Part shown: positions 16,587 to 61,150 of the stretch, piece after piece
Layout of the letters: the number at the start of each line of letters is the position of its first letter
Numbering within the stretch: the first letter of the stretch is position 1
Source: a virus
Length of the DNA: 64,000 nt
IMG/VR virus record: IMGVR_UViG_3300036987_000083
Span: 96,001-160,000 of that record
Reading direction: 5' to 3' (one strand)
The notes under the pieces: model-generated
Told to the model about the DNA's origin: nothing
What the model saw: the letters and a program-made list of their open reading frames with translations, nothing else
The model's database searches: none
Program-made: the position numbers and the translations under genes

Positions 16587-17601
16587 CGTGATTTTCAGTC
16601 AATACCTTGACAGCCTAGCTGACACACCTGTAGATTTCACTCCGCCCGTAACAAGGAGTAATACCCCCGTGCCTACTCACTTTGTCCCAACGGAAGAAAT
16701 TCAGAAACTGACTGTTGGCAGCTACGAGCACCTCGCGTCCAAGTTGGATGAGGCTCTTTCCCGGGACGCTGCAAAGATTTTTGGGGATTCAATCCCGAAC
16801 AAGATTGAACGCATTGGAACCTTCGCGGAGCATGTGCTTGTTGCCGCTGATGACGGGCGCTTCCTGAAGGTGCGGTACGAGCGCGCAACTGGTGGTACCA
16901 TTAAGTTGGTGGGCTCGGAACCTCTCGAAGTTCAACTATACAACGAGTCCAATTTGGGTAGCTACCTTGAGAAAGAGGCGAGGACCATCGTGGAGTCCTT
17001 GCTGGCTCATGACGTCCCCCAGGCGGAGTTAAAGCTCCGGGCGTTAGTGCCTTTCGTAGAAGAGGCGGCGCCACTTACGGACGAGCAGGTGGTCGCGTCA
17101 GCCGTCGAGAGTATGCGGGCCGAGAGGCCGTGGAAACGGTTGTATCGCGAGCGGGCTGAGCAGGTTAAAGACTTCCTCGGGGAACAGCTCAAGGGGATTG
17201 AAGCACGAAAACTCCCACCCAAGTTTGCTAAGCTGAGCGACGGGCAAGTCCCGGAGGCCCAGCATGAGGGCTACAAGGAGCTGGTTCACGACGACTTGGT
17301 CTATATGGCAGAGGCGCTCAAGGGCTGGTTCCAATCCTTGGAATCGATTGAGCGTCTTAAGGCTGTAGACACCGCGAACGAGGAAGAACGTGCTGTGAAG
17401 ACAACTTTCTTGGCGTTTGCAGAGGACTTGCGCCAAGATATTCAAAACGTACGAGACTCCGTATTGGAGTCCCTTAATCTCGTCGGTTCTGTGGCACAGC
17501 TCGGAGTACTGTACGATGCTTTGGTCGAAGAAGCCTTCCATTATGAAGTTGCAAGCTGCTTTGCCTCGACGATGATTACGGAACTTCACGGTTCTAAGTA
17601 A
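16558..17601 (+). CDS. hypothetical head-module protein (GTG 16588 is a likely alternative start)
   Basis: Long ORF between portal and prohead core genes. Confidence 0.7.
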   Translation: MSAQSEAASDVIFSQYLDSLADTPVDFTPPVTRSNTPVPTHFVPTEEIQKLTVGSYEHLASKLDEALSRDAAKIFGDSIPNKIERIGTFAEHVLVAADDGRFLKVRYERATGGTIKLVGSEPLEVQLYNESNLGSYLEKEARTIVESLLAHDVPQAELKLRALVPFVEEAAPLTDEQVVASAVESMRAERPWKRLYRERAEQVKDFLGEQLKGIEARKLPPKFAKLSDGQVPEAQHEGYKELVHDDLVYMAEALKGWFQSLESIERLKAVDTANEEERAVKTTFLAFAEDLRQDIQNVRDSVLESLNLVGSVAQLGVLYDALVEEAFHYEVASCFASTMITELHGSK

Positions 17602-17620
17602 CCTTTCTGGAGATACACAC

Positions 17621-18577
17621 ATGAGCACGAAGTTCCAAGTAGGGTCTATTGAAGAAGACTTTAAGCGCATCGGTATAATTCCGACCGTGGTTGCGGAGTC
17701 TTCCCCTGTGGAGTCTCCCCCTACGGAAGAGCTTGTAACCGAGCCCACGGATGCGCCGGTCGCACCGACCGCCACGGAAGGCTTAAAGCTTTTGCGTAAG
17801 AAGCGCCCATCCGCGAAGTTACGTCTTAAGCGCCGCAAGCAGAAAATGCTGCGTAGACGTAACAAAAGCAAGCTGAAGCTAAAGGCCCTCAAGTTTCGTA
17901 GAAGCGCGAAGGGCAAGCGTTTTGCGCAGAAGTACAAGCGTGTGTTGAAGCGGTTTCACGGTAGCGCGCCCAAGGGCAGGAGGATTTCCTTGAAGATGGG
18001 TCTAGACAGGGTTGCCGGAATGCTTGAGGACGTGCAGGAAATTGTCTCCGCTTTGGACACTGCCGCACACCAGGAAACCGTCAAGTCCTTCGCAAACCTT
18101 GCTATTATTTCCAGCAAGCTTGCGGAGAACTACGCATGCGCGTGTCGCAACCTTGAAGTAGTAGACGAGAACGAAAACGAGATTGACCTTTGTGGGGGCG
18201 CAGAGCACTTCGAAGCGCTTGCAGACAGCGCGGCCAACTTGGCAGAAGCGCTTCAGGCCTCCATACAGGAGGGTACAGAATTCGAGGGTACCACTGAAGA
18301 GGTTGCGGATACGTTCTCAGTAATGCTGAAGGATGTGCTTGAAGGCCTGGAGTTATTTGCTGACCTCTCCGAAGAGGATGTTACGGGAAATCCCGAGGGA
18401 GTAGCTGAGGCCCTTAGCGCCAGTTCCTCGTCCGATAGCGAAGAAGACTGCGAAGATTGCGAAGATTGCGAAGACTGCGATACCGATTCCGACGATTCCG
18501 ACGATTCCGACGATTCCGACGATTCCGACGAGAAGAGCGATAAGGACGGTAAGACGAAGGTCCGCCCTACCAAGTAG
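17621..18577 (+). CDS. putative prohead core protein (K/R-rich segment plus acidic tail, T4 gp68/gp67-like)
   Basis: RRKQKMLRRRNKSKLKLKALKFRRS; DCE/DDS repeats; directly upstream of the protease. Confidence 0.6.
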   Translation: MSTKFQVGSIEEDFKRIGIIPTVVAESSPVESPPTEELVTEPTDAPVAPTATEGLKLLRKKRPSAKLRLKRRKQKMLRRRNKSKLKLKALKFRRSAKGKRFAQKYKRVLKRFHGSAPKGRRISLKMGLDRVAGMLEDVQEIVSALDTAAHQETVKSFANLAIISSKLAENYACACRNLEVVDENENEIDLCGGAEHFEALADSAANLAEALQASIQEGTEFEGTTEEVADTFSVMLKDVLEGLELFADLSEEDVTGNPEGVAEALSASSSSDSEEDCEDCEDCEDCDTDSDDSDDSDDSDDSDEKSDKDGKTKVRPTK

Positions 18578-18758
18578 CGCCAGCACAACAGCAGGAAGCT
18601 TGGCGCTTTCGTCGTAACGCTTATAGCAGCGGACGTAAAGAGACAATTGGGTTGGAAGTCAATCCATTCAAACCAAAACGGAAAGTTCGAAATACCTCGA
18701 AATCAGTGCTTGCAAATACTGACATGAAAGGTACATTTCGTTGGAAAAGGTACTGAGA

Positions 18759-20357
18759 ATGACCCAGCCTCTACAGACCCCCTCTGTAATCCCGTCGGTA
18801 ACCTCGGCTGCTCCGTTACTGGAGCATGCTGGGCGCCTTCTAACCGAAACACGCACTGTTAAGCTCAGTCTTGTTGAAGACACAGAGAAGACGGGAAAGG
18901 TCTTCGTCCGTGGCGAGTTCGGACGCGCAGACCTCGCGACAGAGAATAAGCGTGTGTACCCAAAGAAACTTTGGGAGCGCGAGTTTACCCGCTTGGAGCA
19001 GAGTCTTAACGCCCGACAGATGTTTGGGGAACTAGATCACCCGACAGACGGCCGTACGTCGTTGAATCGCGTCTCCCACATCATCACTAATTTAACCTTG
19101 GACGATAACAACATCGTCGTAGGAGAAGCCGAGATTCTGGATACCGAGCGTGGCAAGAATTTGATGGCCATGCTTAAGGCGGGATGCAGTGTAGGCGTTA
19201 GCTCCAGGGGTTATGGGTCTACCAAGCCAAATGATAAGGGCGAAGAAGTTGTCCAAGAGGACTATCGCTTGGTAACCTACGACTTTGTAGCAGAGCCTGC
19301 AGATTCCAATGCACTACCTAAGGTATTTTTTGAGGAGAATCAGCACATGGCCGGACCAGAGCTTGATGCAAAATTGAGCGAGGAGAAAGCTAAGCTCAAG
19401 GAGGAGTTTGCCAAGGAGCTGGTACTGGCACTCGGAAAAGTTAAGGTTGAGGCTCGGGAGCAAGCCAAGGCGGAGCTACTGGCAGACCCCGACATCGCTG
19501 GGGCCAAGAGCGCATTAGACCAGATTCTCTCCTTGGTAAAGCCGTTCGTCACGGTAGAGTCTGCCGAAGCTCTTGTTAAAGCCAAGGACGCGGAAATTGC
19601 AAAACTGCAGAGTGTCATTGCAGAGCGCGATGCCCAGATTGCGGAACTAGAGCAGGATGGGGCCAAGTTGGCTGAAACTGCTCGGGAAGTCGGCTACAAG
19701 TTCTTCCTGGAGCAGCAAGTGTCGAATGACGCAGATGCTGCCCTCATTAGGAAGCTTGTGGGGGACGTAAAGGGCTACGGCAAGGCCGAAGACATTAAGA
19801 CTAAGATTGAGGCTATTCGAGCCGAGCTAGATAGTAAGCGCCAAGAGCAGGCTGCGCTTGCCGCAGAAATCCGCGCTCAAGTGGAAAAGGCTGCCGCCGT
19901 CGAACAACAGGCGACCCAGCGGGCCAAGGTCGAGGCACAGCGTGCGCAGGTTGAGGCGAAGAAAGCCCAGGCAGAAACTGAACTGCTCAAGGAAGCCCTT
20001 GAGAAGGCAGTTGAAGGCCAAAAGGATATGGCGCTTCGACTCTATGTGGAAAAGCGACTTGCAAATCATCCAAAGGCCGGTAAAGTTCGGTCATTGATTG
20101 AATCTTCACACCCCACGTCGAAAGCTGACGTGGATGGAATCCTCAACTCCTATAGCCACGAACCGGCACGGGACACTGACACGCTTGAGCAGGTCAGGGC
20201 TCGGGTCCGGAAAGTAACTAGAGGGGGTACGGGATCTACAGCGCTCGACGAGGAGGCCCCAGCGGCTAGCGTTGTAGGGAAGCAAGGAGTAGACTTCGCA
20301 GGATTAGGCGTTTCAATTGGTGATTTACAGCGTCTTTCCGGCATCGACCGGAAGTAA
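18759..20357 (+). CDS. gp21: prohead protease (gp21-like) fused to a coiled-coil scaffold region
   Basis: GELDHP, GVSSRGYGS, YDFVAEPA motifs; long coiled coil follows. Confidence 0.9.
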   Translation: MTQPLQTPSVIPSVTSAAPLLEHAGRLLTETRTVKLSLVEDTEKTGKVFVRGEFGRADLATENKRVYPKKLWEREFTRLEQSLNARQMFGELDHPTDGRTSLNRVSHIITNLTLDDNNIVVGEAEILDTERGKNLMAMLKAGCSVGVSSRGYGSTKPNDKGEEVVQEDYRLVTYDFVAEPADSNALPKVFFEENQHMAGPELDAKLSEEKAKLKEEFAKELVLALGKVKVEAREQAKAELLADPDIAGAKSALDQILSLVKPFVTVESAEALVKAKDAEIAKLQSVIAERDAQIAELEQDGAKLAETAREVGYKFFLEQQVSNDADAALIRKLVGDVKGYGKAEDIKTKIEAIRAELDSKRQEQAALAAEIRAQVEKAAAVEQQATQRAKVEAQRAQVEAKKAQAETELLKEALEKAVEGQKDMALRLYVEKRLANHPKAGKVRSLIESSHPTSKADVDGILNSYSHEPARDTDTLEQVRARVRKVTRGGTGSTALDEEAPAASVVGKQGVDFAGLGVSIGDLQRLSGIDRK

Positions 20358-20384
20358 TACAACAACACCCCCTAGGAGCACAAA

Positions 20385-21887
20385 ATGAGTGTCGAAGCAC
20401 GTAAGATGGTAAATGAAGACTCGCGCGGCACGATTGAGGACAAGACCCTCGTCGGCGCGCTAGTGAGGAAGTGGGAGCCGATGCTGGAAGGCATCGCAAA
20501 TCGTACCACCCAAGACAAGTATACCGTCGGTGTGACGGCAATGCTGATGGAGAATCAGTCTCAGTATCTCCAGAACCTGAATGAAGAGACCAAGACGGTG
20601 AACGTGGGTAGCTTTACCAAGTTCATCTTCCCAGTCCTTCGTCGGGTGTTCCCGAACCTCATCGCAAACGAGATTGTTTCCGTTCAGCCGATGACTGCAC
20701 CTGTTGGCGCTGTGTTCTTCCTCGATTATGTGTACGGGACGAACAAGGGCGGCACGAACGCAGGTAACGTGTTCCCTCGTGATTTCGACAGGGACTACTC
20801 GGGCGAGTTTATCAACGGCGAGCAACTTGCCACTGGTGACGGCGCGGCATTCAGCGGTGGTGGTGCGTTCCTGAACGTAACGACGGGCTTTAACCCGGTT
20901 CGCCCCCTGGACACGAGCCGTGGTTTCTCGCTCATTGTCCGCGAGGTTAACAAGACCACGGGCGCTACTGTGCAGCAGGCTGTAGATAACGGCACAGGCG
21001 GGTTCACGGGTGCAGCATCAGGTACGGTTAACTACTCTTCGGGTGCCATTGACGGCTTCAAGTTCAACGCAATCCCGGCGGTAGGCAACCCGATCAAGGC
21101 GTTCTACTTCTACGACGGCGAAATGTCGAACAAGGTGCCACAGATCCAGCTCGACGTGAAGAAGGCTGCCGTTGAGGCCACGCCGCGCCGCCTGAAGGCT
21201 CTCTGGTCGTCGGAAGCCGCTGAAGACCTCCGTGCGTTCCACGGCCTCGACGCAGAGACTGAGATTGTCTCTGCCGTGGCTCAGGAAATCGCGCTGGAGA
21301 TTGACCGCGAAATCATCCAGTCGCTGTTCGCAGCGTCCACTGGTACCACGGCCACCTTCGACCGTATCCCCCCGGCCGGTATCGCCGAGATGGACCACCT
21401 TCGCTCGATGATTACCCAAATCTCGACTGTTTCAAATCTGATTCACAAGAAGACGCTTCGTGCGCCAGCGAACTTCATTGTGACCAGTCCCGAGGTCTCG
21501 GCACTGTTCGCGCAGCTCACCACGCATGGTGACTTCCGCGCGTCGTTCCAGAGCAGCGGCGAGATGTACGGCGGCAGCATGGATATGCCCCGCCAGAACG
21601 CGGGCGTTCCCCAGGGCCAGTTCGGTATCTACAAGGTCGGCACCCTGATGAATAAGTGGCAGGTTTACGAGGATCCCTTCTTCTCGCGTGACCAGATGCT
21701 CATTGGTCTCAAGGGCAGCAGCTACCTCGATGCCGGTTACGTGTGGGCTCCGTACATCCCGCTTCAGGTTACCCCGACGTTCCTGGATCCTGCGGACTTC
21801 TCGTTCCGCAAGGGTCTCCGTACCCGTTACGCAACGAAGCTGCTGCGTTCGGAGTACTACGGCCAGGTGCGGGTCACAAATCTTTGA
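20385..21887 (+). CDS. gp23: major capsid protein (T4 gp23-like)
   Basis: LVRKWEPML...ENQ, VSVQPMTAPVG, RRLKALWS.E.AEDL.A.HGLDAE.E, YVWAPYIPL, RYA. Confidence 0.95.
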   Translation: MSVEARKMVNEDSRGTIEDKTLVGALVRKWEPMLEGIANRTTQDKYTVGVTAMLMENQSQYLQNLNEETKTVNVGSFTKFIFPVLRRVFPNLIANEIVSVQPMTAPVGAVFFLDYVYGTNKGGTNAGNVFPRDFDRDYSGEFINGEQLATGDGAAFSGGGAFLNVTTGFNPVRPLDTSRGFSLIVREVNKTTGATVQQAVDNGTGGFTGAASGTVNYSSGAIDGFKFNAIPAVGNPIKAFYFYDGEMSNKVPQIQLDVKKAAVEATPRRLKALWSSEAAEDLRAFHGLDAETEIVSAVAQEIALEIDREIIQSLFAASTGTTATFDRIPPAGIAEMDHLRSMITQISTVSNLIHKKTLRAPANFIVTSPEVSALFAQLTTHGDFRASFQSSGEMYGGSMDMPRQNAGVPQGQFGIYKVGTLMNKWQVYEDPFFSRDQMLIGLKGSSYLDAGYVWAPYIPLQVTPTFLDPADFSFRKGLRTRYATKLLRSEYYGQVRVTNL

Positions 21888-21921
21888 CCGGACCCTAGTA
21901 CTCAGCAACTAGCTATGGTAC

Positions 21922-21965
21922 GACTCGGCCCGTCAACCATTTCGGTTGGCGGGCCGAGGTCTTTT
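21922..21965 (+). terminator. intrinsic terminator after the major capsid gene
   Basis: CTCGGCCCGTCAACC/GGTTGGCGGGCCGAG stem followed by TTTT. Confidence 0.8.
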
Positions 21966-22906
21966 ATGGGCACTCAACACGCGAAGAAGCGCAAGTACAC
22001 GACTCCCGAAGAGCAGGTGGCTTTGGTGGCCGAATACCAAGATGGGGCGACCCAAACTGCGCTTGCCGAGAAGTACGGGATTACTCAAAACGCGGTCAGC
22101 AAGCTGCTGCAGCGCCTGGGCGTGAAGGCTCGCACTCAGACCGAGGCACAACCACCGACATTCGATGTGGCGGAGGCAGCGCGGCTTTGGGCGGAAGAGA
22201 AGCGCACTACCTACGAGATTGCGACACTGCTCGGGGTGTCTCAGTCGGTAGTGGGGTCACACCTGCTGCGTGCGGGCATCTCCAAGAGCAAGGGACGGGG
22301 CCAGCGCTATCGCCATTTTGACCGAGAGTTCTTCACGAAGGTCACGCACGAGTCTGCGTATTTTGCGGGGTTCGTTGCGGCCGACGGATGTGTCCATGGG
22401 GAGAACGACACCGTGTCCTTCGGGCTGCACCCGAACGACCGTGTCGTGCTGGAGAACTTGAGGGCGGCGGCAAAGCTGGAGCAGCCGATTACCGAGCGGA
22501 ACAACAACTTCGGCAAGCCCTATGTCTGGATGAGTGTGACTTCCCAGAGTGGGTTGAGTCCCTGGAGCGTATCTATAAAATTACGCCCAAGAAGTCCTTG
22601 ACGCTCCAGCCGCCAACCGAGCTGGGCTGGGAGTACGTGTGGTCCTATGTTCGGGGCTACTTTGATGGTGACGGCCATGCGACGAAAGATGGGAAGGGCG
22701 TGCAGATTACTTGCGGGTCATTGCCCTTTATTACTTGGGTTATTCTGGACCTGTTTCGTTCGCACCACAAGATATACGAGCACCCCAAGTACGAGCGCGC
22801 TGACGGTACATCGGCACCCACGTATGGCTGCTACGTATCGGAGAAAACCCGTCTGAAGTACCGAGAGAAGAAAGTCGCAGCCGCGCAGAAGGAACCGCTG
22901 GGCTAG
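21966..22906 (+). pseudogene. frameshifted LAGLIDADG homing endonuclease with N-terminal HTH repeats
   Basis: YFAGFVAADG in one frame and YVRGYFDGDG in the -1 frame; frames join near the CCC at 22543-22545. Confidence 0.75.
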
Positions 22907-23028
22907 CGTGTTGCCCCTGAGAAGTTCAGTCAGCGGAATTAGGACTACACAGCCGGGCTAAAAGTACAGTAGAGTCTGGCTGATAGAATTTGAATGTGCT
23001 AAAAGCATATAGTCCTACCAGGAGCCCC

Positions 23029-23688
23029 ATGCGCGCACTGCTTCGTGAGTTACAGGCCTCAATGCACCCAGAGAATTCTGAGACCCAGGAGGGGGTTTGG
23101 GGTGGGATTAAGAAAGCGGCGGGCAAGGTGGCCAGTGTGGCAGACACTGCCGTTAGCGCAGTTCCGGTGGTTGGAACTGCCTATGACGCAGGAGTCGGAC
23201 TGTATAAGGCGGGTAGAACGCTTCAACACGGAACAACAGCGCTGAGGAAATGGGCAACTGGCGACAAGCAAGGAGCCGCAGCCTCAGCTCAAAAGGCCAA
23301 GGAGGCTGGCGTAGATACCTTGGGCCGCGCCGCAGGCGTTGGTGCTTCCGTGCTGGCTCCGGGCGTGGGAGGTGCCGCCGCTAGTCTGGCTACAAAGGTA
23401 GCTGCAAAGCCCCTCGTTAAGGCTGCTGTAAGCGGCGCCGTGAAGCCTGTTCTGAAGAGCGCGGCAAGAGCTGGAACTGCTGTTGCGCAGAATGCGATTA
23501 AAAAGAAGCCCAAAATCTCGCCCGCAGTGCCGCCCACGCCCCCTCTTGTGCCCGCCAAGCAGAGCGAGTCTGTGCTGTTCCAATCAGTCCGGGCGCTGGT
23601 GGAATTTAGAAGCTTGGTAGGTCTACCTATTACGCAGGAGCACCGAGCGCAACTAGAGGCAGAAGAGTCACTTGACGCAGGAAGTTAA
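23029..23688 (+). CDS. Ala/Gly/Lys-rich hypothetical (possible virion internal) protein
   Basis: AGGAG RBS at 23020-23024; ORF track. Confidence 0.65.
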   Translation: MRALLRELQASMHPENSETQEGVWGGIKKAAGKVASVADTAVSAVPVVGTAYDAGVGLYKAGRTLQHGTTALRKWATGDKQGAAASAQKAKEAGVDTLGRAAGVGASVLAPGVGGAAASLATKVAAKPLVKAAVSGAVKPVLKSAARAGTAVAQNAIKKKPKISPAVPPTPPLVPAKQSESVLFQSVRALVEFRSLVGLPITQEHRAQLEAEESLDAGS

Positions 23689-23722
23689 CTAGCGACCATA
23701 TGGTCGCGCTGAGAGGACGAGG

Positions 23723-24283
23723 ATGAGCAAAGCATCGGACATTTTGAGGGAGTTGGAGGACATTGGTGCGGTGGGCGACAAAGTACAGGAAGTGGTGGTT
23801 CGCCGTTTAGTCCCCGTCCCGACCCTCCCTGTTGCTGAAGAAAGCATGCCTTCGGCTGCGGTCGCTTCGCTGTCACCGAGCGGGTTGCTTGCCGGATTTG
23901 GCGATCAGCTCTCCTCCTTGGAGCAGGCACTGCAAGGCATGCTGAATTGGTGTGCAGGCGCTCGTGAGCTGGCGCAGGAGTATGAGCAGGTAGAGACCGG
24001 CGTGGAGGAGTGCGCGGAACCAGAAGAATCAGAAGAATCAGAAGAATCAGCAGAGTCGGCAACCGAGACTGACTCCGAGGAAGGCGAGGAGGAGGAGGAG
24101 GAGGAGGAGGAGGCAGACGCTTCGGTTGAAGTAGAAGCTGCAGAGGCGGGGGCTACGATAGCAACTCCCGCGAAGCCTAAGTACACCAAGGAGGAGCTTA
24201 AGCGGCTCTTTTTGGATCCAACGTTCGAATCTAAAGAAGTTCAGGCAACGCCACCTTCTGTGGCAGAGGTTTCCCATGAGTAA
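23723..24283 (+). CDS. acidic hypothetical protein
   Basis: GAGG RBS; poly-Glu tract. Confidence 0.65.
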   Translation: MSKASDILRELEDIGAVGDKVQEVVVRRLVPVPTLPVAEESMPSAAVASLSPSGLLAGFGDQLSSLEQALQGMLNWCAGARELAQEYEQVETGVEECAEPEESEESEESAESATETDSEEGEEEEEEEEEADASVEVEAAEAGATIATPAKPKYTKEELKRLFLDPTFESKEVQATPPSVAEVSHE

Positions 24284-24761
24284 CTACAAGCTGAAGCCGG
24301 GGCTGACGTCCGTATTTCTTCCTGGTGCTGGAAAAGTGACCACAAAAACAGTGCTAACAGGGGAGCAGTACCAACGATTTGTTCCCCAGTTCCTAGTGGA
24401 GGCGCCTGAGACCAGCCCCGTAACGGGGGGAGCTGTTTCACCCCCTCCTGTTGCGGTCCCCACGCTTACGCCCGCTGTCGCACCAGTTCCCGTCGCAGAG
24501 GCGACCCCCGAGCGCACGCCAGAGCTTGTTGTTGTTACCGCGCCGGAAGCTGATGCGGCTCCTGAACCGGTGTCAGAGCCTGTGGTTGCGCCTTCTCCAA
24601 TTACGGAGACTCTCCCCGAGCCAGTAGTGCCAGAAGTACTTCAAGAAGTAGTCCCTGCCCCTGCGGCTGTTCTAGATTCGCCAGAGGTCTCGGCAACCGC
24701 TATTGTAGGGGGGACTCCTTCAGCACCAGTTCGTCCCGCAGAGAGGAAAAAGAGGAGGTAA
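24276..24761 (+). CDS. Pro/Val/Glu-rich hypothetical protein
   Basis: Overlapping start/stop packing. Confidence 0.6.
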   Translation: MSNYKLKPGLTSVFLPGAGKVTTKTVLTGEQYQRFVPQFLVEAPETSPVTGGAVSPPPVAVPTLTPAVAPVPVAEATPERTPELVVVTAPEADAAPEPVSEPVVAPSPITETLPEPVVPEVLQEVVPAPAAVLDSPEVSATAIVGGTPSAPVRPAERKKRR

Positions 24762-34994: not shown

Positions 34995-35066
34995 GCGTTC
35001 ATAGCTCAGCGGTAGAGCACCCGCCTTTTAAGCGGAGGGTCCTGGGTTCGATCCCCAGTGGACGCA
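34995..35066 (+). tRNA. trnK: tRNA-Lys(TTT)
   Basis: CCCGC-CTTTTAA-GCGGA. Confidence 0.9.
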
Positions 35067-35077
35067 CAATCCAGTTT

Positions 35078-35156
35078 CAACGAGGCGCTGCTTCGGGTTA
35101 CTTCTCTTGAAAAGAATTCCGGGAAACCGGGAACCTGGGGTGCAACATCTTCGTTG
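35078..35156 (+). ncRNA. candidate structured ncRNA A
   Basis: Terminal helix CAACGAGG/CTTCGTTG; GGGTT/AACCT stem; GAAA tetraloop hairpin; paralogous to 35176-35260. Confidence 0.55.
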
Positions 35157-35175
35157 GTTCTTTTAGTAATGTTTT

Positions 35176-35260
35176 GCGGCGAGGCGTAATCTGGGGTTCC
35201 TTCTTTAATGGAAAAGAGTCGCTGGGAAACCGGCAAACCTTGGGTAAGTATCCTCGCTGT
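35176..35260 (+). ncRNA. candidate structured ncRNA B (paralog of A)
   Basis: GCGGCGAGG/CCTCGCTGT terminal helix; compensatory changes relative to A. Confidence 0.55.
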
Positions 35261-35263
35261 TTT

Positions 35264-35335
35264 GCGGCCATAGTTCAGTGGTAGAACGCTAGCCTTCCAA
35301 GCTGGATGTCGAGGGTTCGAATCCCTCTGGCCGCT
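35264..35335 (+). tRNA. trnG: tRNA-Gly(TCC)
   Basis: CTAGC-CTTCCAA-GCTGG. Confidence 0.9.
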
Positions 35336-35364
35336 CTGCAGTAAACGACCACATGGTCGCGTCT

Positions 35365-35450
35365 GGAAAGTAAATCAGACATGGGTCTGAGCCTGGGTGC
35401 TAACCAGTGCGCACCTTCCGGGGTGTGGGGATCGAGACCTCTGCTTTCCG
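35365..35450 (+). tRNA. trnS: tRNA-Ser(GCT), atypical T-loop ATCGAGA
   Basis: CTGG-GTGCTAA-CCAG; long variable arm; GGAAAGT/GCTTTCC acceptor. Confidence 0.8.
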
Positions 35451-35456
35451 CTTAAC

Positions 35457-35643: not shown

Positions 35644-35672
35644 CTGAGAAACTGAGAAACTGAGAAACTGAG
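35644..35672 (+). repeat. short tandem repeat (CTGAGAAA) x3.5
   Basis: Read directly. Confidence 0.85.
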
Positions 35673-35810
35673 AGACGAGGCGTAAGTGAGAGCTACTCCA
35701 TGGATCTGTGGGTCGGGGGTTCGAATCTCCCTACAAGGATGTACTTGCATAGCTCAGCCTGGTAGAGCAACAGAATAAAAGATGCTTTCACTCAAGTACC
35801 ATCCTCGTCT
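35673..35810 (+). ncRNA. YrlA-like Y RNA (permuted tRNA-like domain on a long terminal stem)
   Basis: Order: stem, T-arm (GGGGG TTCGAAT CTCCC), closed acceptor hairpin, D-arm (GCTC AGCCTGGTA GAGC), stem; AGACGAGG/CCTCGTCT and GTGAGAGC/GCTTTCAC helices. Confidence 0.7.
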
Positions 35811-37929: not shown

Positions 37930-38534
37930 GTGACATCCTTCTTCCGGCTCTTGTGCTGGCTGCCCCTGCGGCGCCTGCAACTACCGTAGCCTCTGTGGCC
38001 CCGGTAGCCCCTGCAGCCCCTGTGACTACTGCGGACCCTTTGACGCCGCTTTACGCGCTAGTAGGCAGCTTGGTGCTCCTGCAGCTCATCAAGTCCGGAT
38101 TCGCATTCGTGAGGTGGCTGGGGGCGAGAACTGTCGCGAACGAGGACAAGGATAAAGCGGAAGTCCGGCGGCAGATTGAGGAGCAAAAGTTGGAGATGCG
38201 CAAGCAGAAAGAAGAACACGAAGCTCGGTTTGAAGAAATCGACAGGACCGTTTCAGCTATTGACCGCGCGATGGGCACGGTTCAGCTAGAGATGAAGCAA
38301 GTGCTCTCAACGGTAGAGTCAACCCGAGGGATGGTTGTTGAAATCAAGGGCTCGATGGACAACCGGTTCGAAAAGCAATCAGATTTCTACCGAGGCCAGA
38401 TTAAAGAGCTGTTGGTCGGTGTGGACAAGCGCCTGGAGGACTTGGAATATGCGCTACGGCAAGATATGTCCAGGGCCATCCACGACTCGGCGATGATGAG
38501 CAAGACCGCCAGCGCGAAGCGCCAAAAGTCATAA
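37926..38534 (+). CDS. single-TM coiled-coil membrane protein (possibly holin-like)
   Basis: LYALVGSLVLLQLIKSGFAFVRWLG followed by coiled coil. Confidence 0.6.
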   Translation: MSDILLPALVLAAPAAPATTVASVAPVAPAAPVTTADPLTPLYALVGSLVLLQLIKSGFAFVRWLGARTVANEDKDKAEVRRQIEEQKLEMRKQKEEHEARFEEIDRTVSAIDRAMGTVQLEMKQVLSTVESTRGMVVEIKGSMDNRFEKQSDFYRGQIKELLVGVDKRLEDLEYALRQDMSRAIHDSAMMSKTASAKRQKS

Positions 38535-38885
38535 CCAAGCCAAAGCCATCCGGATGTCTGCGATGCTTGGCGGCTTAGCAATGACCATCTGAATCACCCG
38601 ACTTCTGAGTGCGTCTTTAATCGTGTACTCTTGGGGTGCTGCGGTGATGAGGACGCGGCGCACTTCGGGCCGATTTTGTTGCCAGACCGTCAACACGTCG
38701 ATGCCGTCAAGCTTGGGCATCATCAAGTCCGTCAGGACTGCGACGATGTCGGCATCCTGTTGGTACTTGGTTGCCGCCGCCATGGAGTCCAGCTCCAAAA
38801 TAGACTCAAATCCGCAGAAGTCTACGACTTCGCTGATTAGGCGGGCGACCGAAGCGTCATCATCGATGCAAAGCACTCGTTTCAT
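38529..38885 (-). CDS. stand-alone CheY-like response regulator receiver domain
   Basis: VLCIDDD, LTDLMMPKLDG (phospho-acceptor Asp), LIT, AKP. Confidence 0.9.
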   Translation of the reverse strand: MKRVLCIDDDASVARLISEVVDFCGFESILELDSMAAATKYQQDADIVAVLTDLMMPKLDGIDVLTVWQQNRPEVRRVLITAAPQEYTIKDALRSRVIQMVIAKPPSIADIRMALAWL

Positions 38886-49866: not shown

Positions 49867-49941
49867 CTCGTGAGGCGCATGAACTGGGTTACTTCCTGCT
49901 AAGAAAAATACCTAGTTCGACTTTATCCTCACGTTTTATTT

Positions 49942-60747: not shown

Positions 60748-60944
60748 AGCCTTTACCGAAAAATAAGCGGCTCCTTCTCCAAAAAAAGAAGCTTCTCCTG
60801 CAGAAAACGATGCGGGGAGAACTTGAGAAACTTCGTGAGATGGTTTCAAACCTTCTAGGCCAAGAGACGGCAATGGCGCCTCCCCAAGGGTCAAAGGCGT
60901 CACTGCTGGGCGGGAGGCGTCGGGCATGGCGGCGAAAGCTGTAG
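60744..60944 (+). CDS. small basic hypothetical protein
   Basis: Overlapping start/stop packing. Confidence 0.45.
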   Translation: MKPLPKNKRLLLQKKKLLLQKTMRGELEKLREMVSNLLGQETAMAPPQGSKASLLGGRRRAWRRKL

Positions 60945-61150
60945 TTATTCCGGAGACGCCTGCCGAACCTGAGGCAGGTTCGGACATCTTCTTGATTGCG
61001 ATGCCGTTGGCAACCTACCGGGCGTTGTCGGACACGGCGGCAATTAGAAACATGACATTTGCCCAAGCTATGCAGCAGGCACTGAATCAGTGGATTGAAG
61101 CTGTTCCGACTTTGCCGAGTTCAGTACCAACGGCTCCAATCCAAAAGTGA
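60926..61150 (+). CDS. small RHH-like protein
   Basis: IAMPLATYRALSDTA..RNMTFAQAMQQAL..W. Confidence 0.5.
   Translation: MAAKAVVIPETPAEPEAGSDIFLIAMPLATYRALSDTAAIRNMTFAQAMQQALNQWIEAVPTLPSSVPTAPIQK

What the first reader, a model, noticed from the sequence alone, without database searches (positions are those of the whole stretch)
35078..35260. Tandem pair of unknown RNAs sharing the terminal helix of the Y-like RNA
Seen: RNAs A (35078-35156) and B (35176-35260) share CGAGGCG...GGGTT...CTTCT...GAAAAGA...GGGAAACCGG...AACCT.GGG...ATC(T/C)TCG. They show compensatory changes in the terminal stem and the GAAA hairpin. The same CGAGGCG / ATCCTCG bulged-helix motif bounds the Y-like RNA (35676-35682 / 35801-35807). 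Inference: a family of three RNAs with one common protein-docking helix and interchangeable effector domains.
Basis: partly seen in the sequence, partly recalled or inferred. Interest (0 to 1): 0.7.

Follow-up and report, generated by a model that had tools for sequence, protein, structure and literature searches.

The report
Phage small Y RNAs in tRNA array
The two "unknown" RNAs are small Y RNAs, the partner RNAs of the ring protein Ro60/Rsr, but here they sit inside a phage tRNA gene array and no Ro60 gene is found in the phage record, whereas almost all their relatives lie right beside one.

Summary
RNAs A (35078-35156) and B (35177-35259) are real, related, structured RNAs. The CGAGGCG/ATCCTCG helix also closes the YrlA-like RNA C (35673-35810). 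A fourth copy, D, lies at 49868-49934.

They belong to a known kind. A covariance model built only from A, B and their two orthologs in a related phage placed 48 of 55 hits within 800 nt upstream of phage Rsr (Ro60) genes, on the same strand (p about 2e-52). A reciprocal model built from 33 Rsr-linked RNAs finds only B, D and A in the window (E about 1e-7). In an unbiased motif scan, 51 of 53 validated viral contigs and 10 of 11 bacterial loci carry an adjacent Rsr gene.

The shared "handle" is a terminal helix, then GGCG(U/A)AG, a second helix and GGUUACUUC. The GGCG(U/A)AG part matches the published Rsr motif GNCGAA(N)G. Helices P1 and P2 covary strongly.

Two things are unusual. All four Y RNAs sit inside a 42-tRNA array. 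No Rsr gene is detectable in the 179-kb record (88% complete), which does encode RtcB. This scan has already reported Y RNA arrays beside phage Ro60 on other DNA.

The parts
35078..35156 (+). Small Y RNA A (79 nt), three-way junction type
   Evidence: R1 88.1 bits. The independent model R2 gives 41.2 bits, E 4e-7. Fold. Ortholog at L046:16037-16114.
35078..35085 (+). A, helix P1 5' strand (CAACGAGG), pairs with 35149-35156 (CTTCGTTG)
   Evidence: P1 covaries across 33 relatives: all 8 pairs have double-sided changes.
35084..35087 (+). A, GGCG core of the handle, the position of the published Rsr motif GNCGAA(N)G
   Evidence: Motif from PMC4201824. A keeps only GGCG and lacks the (U/A)AG.
35089..35099 (+). 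A, helix P2 5' strand, pairs with 35132-35142
35098..35116 (+). A, conserved TTACTTC motif and pyrimidine/purine hairpin (CTTCT-CTTGAAA-AGAA)
   Evidence: GGUUACUUC is the most conserved block of the family. The same 18-nt head sequence, beginning at ACTTC, occurs in the Rsr-linked RNA L182:1723-1802.
35119..35130 (+). A, hairpin P3 CCGG-GAAA-CCGG
   Evidence: Hairpins capped by GAAA or GCAA recur at this place in three Rsr-linked relatives (L157, L182, L153:2494), and three or four more carry a hairpin with a different loop.
35177..35259 (+). Small Y RNA B (83 nt), three-way junction type. P1 35177-35184/35252-35259; P2 35189-35198/35236-35245; hairpin 35200-35218; P3 35221-35234 (GCTGG-GAAA-CCGGC)
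   Evidence: R1 87.4 bits. R2 43.8 bits, E 1e-7. Fold. Ortholog at L046:16124-16210. Its head resembles that of the Rsr-linked RNA L153:2400-2484.
35673..35810 (+). YrlA-like Y RNA C with a permuted tRNA-like head, same CGAGGCG/ATCCTCG helix
   Evidence: Rfam RF02553 gives 39.4 bits, E 6e-7, below the gathering score of 69. R2 gives only 10.8 bits, E 1, with filters off. 78.7% identical over 84-88 nt to the Tabio YrlA-like RNA that lies next to an Rsr gene.
49868..49934 (+). Small Y RNA D (67 nt), simple long hairpin with a pyrimidine-rich loop
   Evidence: R2 41.4 bits, E 4e-7. R1 23.7 bits. Sequence.
34995..35067 (+). tRNA-Lys(ttt), ends 10 nt before A
35264..35336 (+). tRNA-Gly(tcc), starts 4 nt after B
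   Evidence: The same order, Lys(ttt) - A' - B' - Gly(tcc), is kept in L046.

Best explanation
A and B, together with D and the tRNA-like C, are phage-encoded Y RNAs, the non-coding partner RNAs of the ring protein Rsr (bacterial Ro60).

Each has a constant handle: a terminal helix P1 whose inner end carries GGCG(U/A)AG-type sequence, a second helix P2, and the GGUUACUUC / A-rich internal motif. Each also has a variable head. In A and B the head is a short pyrimidine-purine hairpin plus a GAAA-capped hairpin. In D it is nothing more than a loop. In C it is a permuted tRNA mimic.

Shown here: family membership, the covarying structure, and the near-obligate linkage of the family to Rsr genes elsewhere.

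Inferred:
(1) The RNAs are transcribed with the tRNA array and released by tRNA-processing enzymes, with RNase P at the downstream tRNA and 3' processing of the upstream tRNA.
(2) The handle docks on an Rsr ring. That Rsr is the host's, or a phage Rsr lying in the unsequenced 12%.
(3) The different heads gate Rsr or tether it to different partners such as PNPase. This would redirect the host's structured-RNA decay and repair machinery during infection, alongside the phage's own RtcB ligase and 42 tRNAs.

The confidence of 0.8 is for membership of the Rsr-linked Y RNA family together with Rsr docking. Membership alone I put at about 0.9, and the specific roles of the heads at about 0.5.
For: - Model R1, built from A, B and their two L046 orthologs only, was run over 80 phage Rsr loci. 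It put 48 of 55 hits in the 800 nt upstream of Rsr on the Rsr strand, which is 5.7% of the space searched; binomial p 2e-52, 35 loci.
- The 33 best Rsr-side hits covary. 86.9% of cells are paired against 59% in shuffles. 166 cells have double-sided changes against 46. The covariation score is 0.576 against 0.145, and slid controls reach at most 0.10.
- Model R2, built from those 33 RNAs with no window sequence, finds in the whole window only B (43.8 bits), D (41.4) and A (41.2).
- An unbiased motif scan of viral contigs gave 53 R2-validated or Rsr-bearing contigs, 51 with Rsr adjacent.
- In bacterial genomes there were 11 R2-positive loci, 10 with Rsr directly downstream.
- The handle sequence is GG(C/U)G(A/U)AG, and GGCGAAG in several relatives. 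This fits GNCGAAN0-1G, the proposed Rsr recognition motif (PMC4201824).
- Phage Tabio has five such RNAs upstream of its TROVE gene.
- No promoter or terminator lies around A and B, and spacing to the flanking tRNAs is 10 nt on the 5' side and 4 nt on the 3' side.
- The position is conserved in a phage with 79% sheath identity, with compensatory changes.
- The record encodes RtcB. RtcB is genetically linked to rsr and Y RNAs in many bacteria (bioRxiv 10.1101/312249).
Against: - No Rsr gene is in the 179-kb record by three methods: Pfam TROVE, the Tabio Rsr protein, and a profile of 72 phage Rsr proteins (best E 0.59; positive control 4e-208). No DUF2828 Ro60-like gene either. The docking partner is therefore not in hand.
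- A and its ortholog keep only GGCG of the motif.
- The usual bulged U is replaced by an A-U pair. About 13 of 33 relatives are also paired at that position.
- No expression, processing or binding data exist.
- The role of the strongly conserved GGUUACUUC block is unknown.
- Rfam's YrlA model aligns its Rsr stem to P2 rather than P1 in the phage RNAs, so which helix Rsr touches is not settled.
Confidence: 0.8

Rival explanations
1. Orphan Y RNAs that work without any Rsr. The phage kept the RNAs but not the protein, and they act directly on another factor. For example they could bind host PNPase or other RNases as decoys, or serve the phage RtcB and tRNA repair pathway.
For: No Rsr or DUF2828 gene in 88% of the genome. 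The RNAs are not even near a large ORF. One other orphan-looking contig exists (G005, 84% complete). For Thermus phage phiLo, Yrl RNAs are reported to bind PNPase on their own in EMSA (PMC12135203). RtcB is present.
Against: The handle, including GGCG, is kept intact in all four copies and in L046, as expected if the Rsr contact is still selected. 51 of 53 viral contigs and 10 of 11 bacterial loci pair the family with Rsr. A host Rsr or the missing 12% of the genome explains the absence more simply.
Confidence: 0.15
2. Decaying relics. The RNAs are remnants of a lost Rsr/Y RNA cassette that drifted into the tRNA array and are no longer functional.
For: No partner gene. More distant relatives of the phage have neither Rsr nor Y RNAs, so the cassette is a recent and possibly transient acquisition.
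Against: Both helices are intact in all four copies. The A/A' and B/B' orthologs differ by compensatory changes that keep pairing. R2 scores of 41-44 bits sit in the range of Rsr-linked members. Position and order in the array are conserved.
Confidence: 0.04
3. Generic structured spacers or processing signals of the tRNA array, or chance similarity, unrelated to Y RNAs.
For: They lie in tRNA-tRNA spacers and have no Rfam match.
Against: The reciprocal covariance-model results and the Rsr linkage are incompatible with chance. Most spacers of this array have no such element, and R2 finds only three hits in 64 kb.
Confidence: 0.01

Closest known systems
YrlB / Yrn2-type small bacterial Y RNAs (S. 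Typhimurium YrlB, M. smegmatis YrlB, D. radiodurans Yrn2; Chen et al. 2014, PMC4201824)
   Same: Small Rsr-associated RNAs without a full tRNA-like domain, encoded in tandem with a YrlA-type RNA. [quoted passage not shown]
   Different: Chen et al. could find no YrlB homologs outside Salmonella by sequence. The present RNAs belong to a family recognisable by covariance model across many phages and Acidobacteriota, with a conserved GGUUACUUC block. A and B add a three-way junction with a GAAA-capped hairpin. Here no rsr gene lies beside them.
YrlA (Rfam RF02553)
   Same: RNA C in the same array is YrlA-like and shares the terminal helix. In relatives such as Tabio, R2 aligns the same handle around YrlA-type heads.
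   Different: A, B and D have no T arm, D arm or acceptor mimic, and give no RF02553 or tRNA hit at E up to 10. Even C and the Tabio YrlA-like RNAs score below Rfam's gathering threshold (39-52 against 69 bits).
Yrl1/Yrl2 of Thermus phage phiLo with phage Ro60 (NAR 2025, PMC12135203)
   Same: Phage-encoded Y RNA-like RNAs with a 5'-3' stem and a CGAA-type motif. They are proposed to help the phage take over host PNPase.
   Different: Those lie directly upstream of the phage Ro60 gene. Ours lie in a tRNA array, with no Ro60 gene in the record.
Metazoan Y RNAs
   Same: Modular design: a conserved Ro60-binding helix formed by the two ends, a variable pyrimidine-rich loop region, and several paralogs per genome.
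   Different: No detectable sequence homology. They are transcribed by polymerase III as single genes and have a bulged-C helix.

Membership tests
Bacterial/phage Y RNA (Rsr/Ro60 partner RNA) | Encoded next to an rsr (TROVE) gene, same strand | tested here: not met
   For this locus, no TROVE, Rsr or DUF2828 gene is anywhere in the 179-kb record. For the family the feature is met: 48 of 55 R1 hits lie within 800 nt upstream of Rsr, 51 of 53 viral contigs qualify, and 10 of 11 bacterial loci qualify.
Bacterial/phage Y RNA (Rsr/Ro60 partner RNA) | Long stem formed by pairing of the 5' and 3' ends | tested here: met
   P1 is 8 bp and P2 10-11 bp in A and B. Both helices covary in 33 relatives.
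Bacterial/phage Y RNA (Rsr/Ro60 partner RNA) | GNCGAAN0-1G-type motif on the 5' strand (proposed Rsr contact, PMC4201824) | tested here: inconclusive
   The family consensus is GG(C/U)G(A/U)AG, with exact GGCGAAG in several Rsr-linked members. B has GGCGTAAT, C has GGCGTAAG, D has GGCGCATGAA, and A has only GGCG (GGCGCTGC). Rfam's model aligns its stem elsewhere.
Bacterial/phage Y RNA (Rsr/Ro60 partner RNA) | Size about 80-130 nt, discrete stable RNA | not testable with these tools
   Predicted sizes are 79, 83, 67 and 138 nt. There are no expression data.
Bacterial/phage Y RNA (Rsr/Ro60 partner RNA) | Physical binding to Rsr/Ro60 | not testable with these tools
   Needs pull-down or EMSA.
Bacterial/phage Y RNA (Rsr/Ro60 partner RNA) | Detected by a structure-and-sequence model trained on Rsr-linked RNAs | tested here: met
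   R2, built from 33 Rsr-adjacent RNAs, gives A 41.2, B 43.8 and D 41.4 bits, E about 1e-7. These are the only hits in the window.
YrlA (RF02553) | tRNA-like effector domain (T arm, D arm, closed acceptor) | tested here: not met
   No RF02553 or tRNA match for A or B at E up to 10. Their heads are two short hairpins. C meets this feature but scores below the gathering threshold.

The most novel reading that the evidence does not exclude
The phage truly lacks an Rsr gene and uses a set of four processed Y RNAs, delivered from its tRNA operon, to capture or reprogram the host cell's own Rsr/PNPase RNA-surveillance particle. This would work alongside its RtcB ligase and full tRNA set. It would be the first case of Y RNAs uncoupled from rsr and used as viral effectors against a host ribonucleoprotein. 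In addition, the conserved handle (P1 - GGCG(U/A)AG - P2 - GGUUACUUC) defines a widespread small Y RNA family that is absent from Rfam and that I did not find described.
Probability: 0.3. Interest if true: 0.6.

Novelty: new variant of a known kind. Interest (0 to 1): 0.42.

Why it matters
Bacterial Y RNAs other than YrlA have been hard to find because the few known examples (YrlB, Yrn2) showed no cross-species homology. The handle seen here gives a searchable model that picks up small Y RNAs in many phages and soil bacteria, often in arrays of 5-8 copies. That model could be used to annotate them.

This locus also separates Y RNAs from their protein gene and places them among tRNAs beside a phage that carries RtcB. 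That makes one idea testable: that phages deploy Y RNAs to act on the host Ro60/PNPase machinery or on tRNA repair during the conflict over tRNA cleavage.

For the scan itself, the result turns "unknown RNAs" into annotated ones.

Tried and rejected
- Exact-motif scans modelled on this phage's own variant (GAGGCG..GGGTTNCTTC..AAAA; GAGGCG..GGTTNCTTC..ATCYTC) returned mostly coding-sequence chance matches. Only the ortholog contig (L046 = L093) was a clear relative.
- A possible extra type in L082, L085, L103 and L110 (GTGAGGCG..GGTTTCTTC-hairpin-GAATAAT..AGATCCTCAC) folds well. It scores only 13.7 bits with R1 and is not found by R2, so I do not count it as a member.
- A hand-written helix descriptor was too strict and missed A and B, so I dropped it in favour of covariance models.
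- blastn against GenBank phages found no close relative of the array, only tRNA matches and the Tabio/Sopo YrlA-like match.
- Five larger, more distant relatives of the phage (sheath 43-62% identical) have neither Rsr nor these RNAs, so they give no help on the partner.
- The match to the terminal-helix pattern at 60914-60991 is not recognised by R1 or R2 and overlaps a minus-strand ORF. I rejected it as chance.
- The "terminator" called at 35081-35095 is just part of A's 5' end.
- Two Wolin-lab reviews (PMC10870794, PMC6047535) were not held, so my statement that this small-RNA family is undescribed rests on a limited literature check.

Full report
**What is there**

The window is bases 96001-160000 of a 179,489-base IMG/VR virus record, estimated 88% complete. 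It has tail sheath and tube genes followed by an array of 42 tRNA genes, all on the + strand.

RNA A fills most of the spacer after tRNA-Lys(ttt), which ends at 35067. RNA B ends 4 nt before tRNA-Gly(tcc), which starts at 35264.

Each of A and B folds into the same shape:
- an 8-bp terminal helix P1
- a 10-11-bp helix P2
- a short pyrimidine-purine hairpin
- a GAAA-capped hairpin P3

Both folds have z about -2.9 against shuffles. Rfam 15 has no match for A or B at E up to 10. C matches YrlA (RF02553) at 39.4 bits, E 6e-7, below the gathering score.

I confirmed D at 49868-49934, just upstream of tRNA-Arg(tct), which starts 6 nt after it.

**Orthologs**

The closest relative found has a tail sheath 79% identical (L046). 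It carries orthologs of both RNAs at the same place in the same tRNA order: Thr, Lys, Lys, A', B', Gly. The four sequences support one consensus structure of 23 pairs. Six pairs have double-sided compensatory changes.

**What they are**

The tRNA-like part of C is 78.7% identical to an unannotated stretch of Xanthomonas phage Tabio. Reading that stretch showed five tandem RNAs. All begin with the same GGTGGTG(A/T)A motif and all carry TTACTTC-type motifs. Two have YrlA-type heads, scoring 52 and 37 bits with RF02553. They lie directly upstream of an ORF with a TROVE domain, which is an Rsr/Ro60 ortholog annotated only as hypothetical.

I used that protein to fetch 80 phage Rsr loci with 3-kb flanks.

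A covariance model made only from A, B, A' and B' (R1) gave 55 hits at E up to 10 in those loci:
- 48 hits, in 35 loci, lie on the Rsr strand within 800 nt upstream of the gene. That zone is 5.7% of the space searched, giving binomial p about 2e-52.
- Two more hits lie just after the gene.

The alignments show the common design:
- P1, often with a bulged U
- GG(C/U)G(A/U)AG
- P2
- GGUUACUUC(U)
- a variable head
- an A-rich return strand
- a (G/U)UU-CC closing strand

On the 33 best hits, P1 and P2 covary strongly:
- 86.9% of cells are paired, against 59% in shuffles.
- 166 cells have double-sided changes, against 46.
- The covariation score is 0.576, against 0.145.
- Slid controls reach at most 0.10.

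**Reciprocal and unbiased tests**

A second model, built from those 33 Rsr-side RNAs (R2), contains no sequence from this phage. Its training set was selected with R1, so it is not fully independent.

In the 64-kb window R2 finds only B (43.8 bits), D (41.4) and A (41.2), at E about 1e-7. With filters off, C aligns over its whole span but weakly, at 10.8 bits.

I then scanned all viral contigs for the handle string GGCGTAG-N5-9-GGTTACTTC, without reference to Rsr. The scan returned more than 111 stretches. Of the 79 examined:
- 48 have an Rsr homolog in the fetched piece, almost always immediately downstream of the RNA or immediately upstream of it.
- 31 have none. Of these, only 5 are recognised by R2, so the rest are chance matches.
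- Of those 5, 3 have an Rsr within 0.5 kb in the full contig.

That gives 51 of 53.

The same string in 185,579 prokaryote genomes is mostly noise. They are mainly Acidobacteriota and carry arrays of up to 8 copies. Ten of the 11 have Rsr directly downstream, and the eleventh is cut off by the end of the locus.

The family is therefore an Rsr-linked Y RNA family. The motif GG(C/U)G(A/U)AG, which is GGCGAAG in several members, fits GNCGAAN0-1G, the motif proposed by Chen et al. as the Rsr recognition element of YrlA and YrlB (PMC4201824). [quoted passage not shown] That is what D looks like.

**Heads**

The three-way-junction head of A and B is a minority form. Six or seven of the 33 Rsr-linked RNAs have a hairpin at the P3 position, and three of those (L157, L182, L153:2494) are capped by GAAA or GCAA.

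- A's head sequence ACTTCTCTTGAAAAGAA recurs exactly in the Rsr-linked RNA L182:1723-1802, whose P1 and P2 sequences differ.
- B's head (CTTCTTTAATGG.AAAGA plus a hairpin) resembles L153:2400-2484.

So A and B look like two old subtypes rather than a fresh tandem duplication.

**What is unusual here**

Wherever the family was found with Rsr, the two were within about 1 kb of each other. In this phage the four RNAs are in tRNA spacers, and the neighbouring ORFs are small and match no Pfam family.

No Rsr is detectable in the record by any of these searches:
- Pfam TROVE
- the Tabio Rsr protein
- a profile of 72 phage Rsr proteins run over all six-frame ORFs, best E 0.59, with a positive control of 4e-208
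- DUF2828, a Ro60-like family flagged by earlier notes of this scan

The record does encode an RtcB RNA ligase at G000:C1:173632-174720. In many bacteria this gene shares an operon with rsr and the Y RNAs (bioRxiv 10.1101/312249).

More distant relatives of the phage have neither Rsr nor these RNAs. One contig (G006) shows a possible intermediate arrangement: Rsr, then two to three Y RNAs, then a 27-tRNA array.

Because 12% of the genome is missing, absence of Rsr from the phage is likely but not proven. Non-adjacency is certain.

**Mechanism**

Shown:
- the structure
- family membership
- linkage of the family to Rsr
- the lack of promoter-like or convincing terminator-like sites around A and B

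Inferred from the literature on Y RNAs:
- The handle binds the Rsr ring.
- The heads gate the ring or tether it to partners such as PNPase.
- In a phage this could redirect host RNA decay and repair.

Co-transcription with the tRNAs, and release by RNase P and 3' tRNA processing, is inferred from the 4-10 nt spacing. It is also consistent with the report that M. smegmatis YrlA and YrlB are cut from one precursor.

Which helix Rsr touches is not settled, because Rfam's YrlA model aligns its 5' stem to P2 rather than P1 in phage RNAs. I favour P1/GGCG because of the motif match and the matching helix and loop order.

**Verdict**

The RNAs are new, unannotated members of a known kind, in a variant context: inside a tRNA array with no adjacent Rsr. 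This scan has already reported large Y RNA arrays beside phage Ro60 genes on other DNA. The locus is of moderate interest.

Noticed in passing
window 35363-35452 (+): A cloverleaf not called by ARAGORN or Rfam. It has an 8-bp acceptor stem, a 6-bp D stem, anticodon loop GUGCUAA (GCU), a long variable arm and a 4-bp T stem. An earlier report of this scan identifies the phage's serine tRNAs as 8/4-type tRNA-Ser.
   Followed up: partly
window 35644-35675 (+): Four tandem copies of the 8-nt unit CTGAGAAA (the last is CTGAGAGA) fill the spacer between tRNA-Gly(ccc) and the YrlA-like RNA C and run into its terminal helix.
   Followed up: no
L113:290-900 (Xanthomonas phage Tabio LR743528, record about 38000-38610): Five tandem Y RNA-like genes (two YrlA-type, one simple hairpin, two with a lone T arm) share the start GUGGUG(A/U)A. 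They lie directly upstream of a TROVE-domain ORF annotated only as hypothetical. None of the RNAs is annotated in the record.
   Followed up: partly
G000:C1:173632-174720 (outside the window): The phage encodes a full-length RtcB RNA ligase (Pfam E 2e-107), the enzyme that is operon-linked to rsr and Y RNAs in many bacteria.
   Followed up: no
L406:1153-2900, L409:5418-6994, L383, L388, L326, L376 (bacterial genomes; the four whose titles were shown are Acidobacteriota, those of L406 and L409 were not listed): Arrays of 4-8 tandem Y RNAs of this family, mixing small and YrlA-sized members, lie directly upstream of rsr.
   Followed up: partly
G006 (IMGVR_UViG_3300028800_000144) 17454-24400; L207: The order is Rsr gene, then two to three Y RNAs, then immediately a 27-tRNA array. 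This is a possible intermediate between the usual Rsr-linked layout and the tRNA-array layout seen in the window.
   Followed up: partly
L082:1611-1681, L085:9503-9573, L103:4683-4753, L110:4446-4516: A conserved ~65-nt hairpin RNA has the same GTGAGGCG...AGATCCTCAC closing helix and a GGTTTCTTC / GAATAAT loop, in contigs without a TROVE gene. It folds well, and the inner hairpin varies between copies. It is not recognised by R2, so its relation to Y RNAs is unproven.
   Followed up: partly
L011, L029, L032 (viral contigs of 82-172 kb): A tRNA-like element ends in a T arm plus GCGCCACCA. Its 5' part (GAGGCG..GGGTTACTTCGGAAAAC) resembles the Y RNA handle and loop motif.
   Followed up: no
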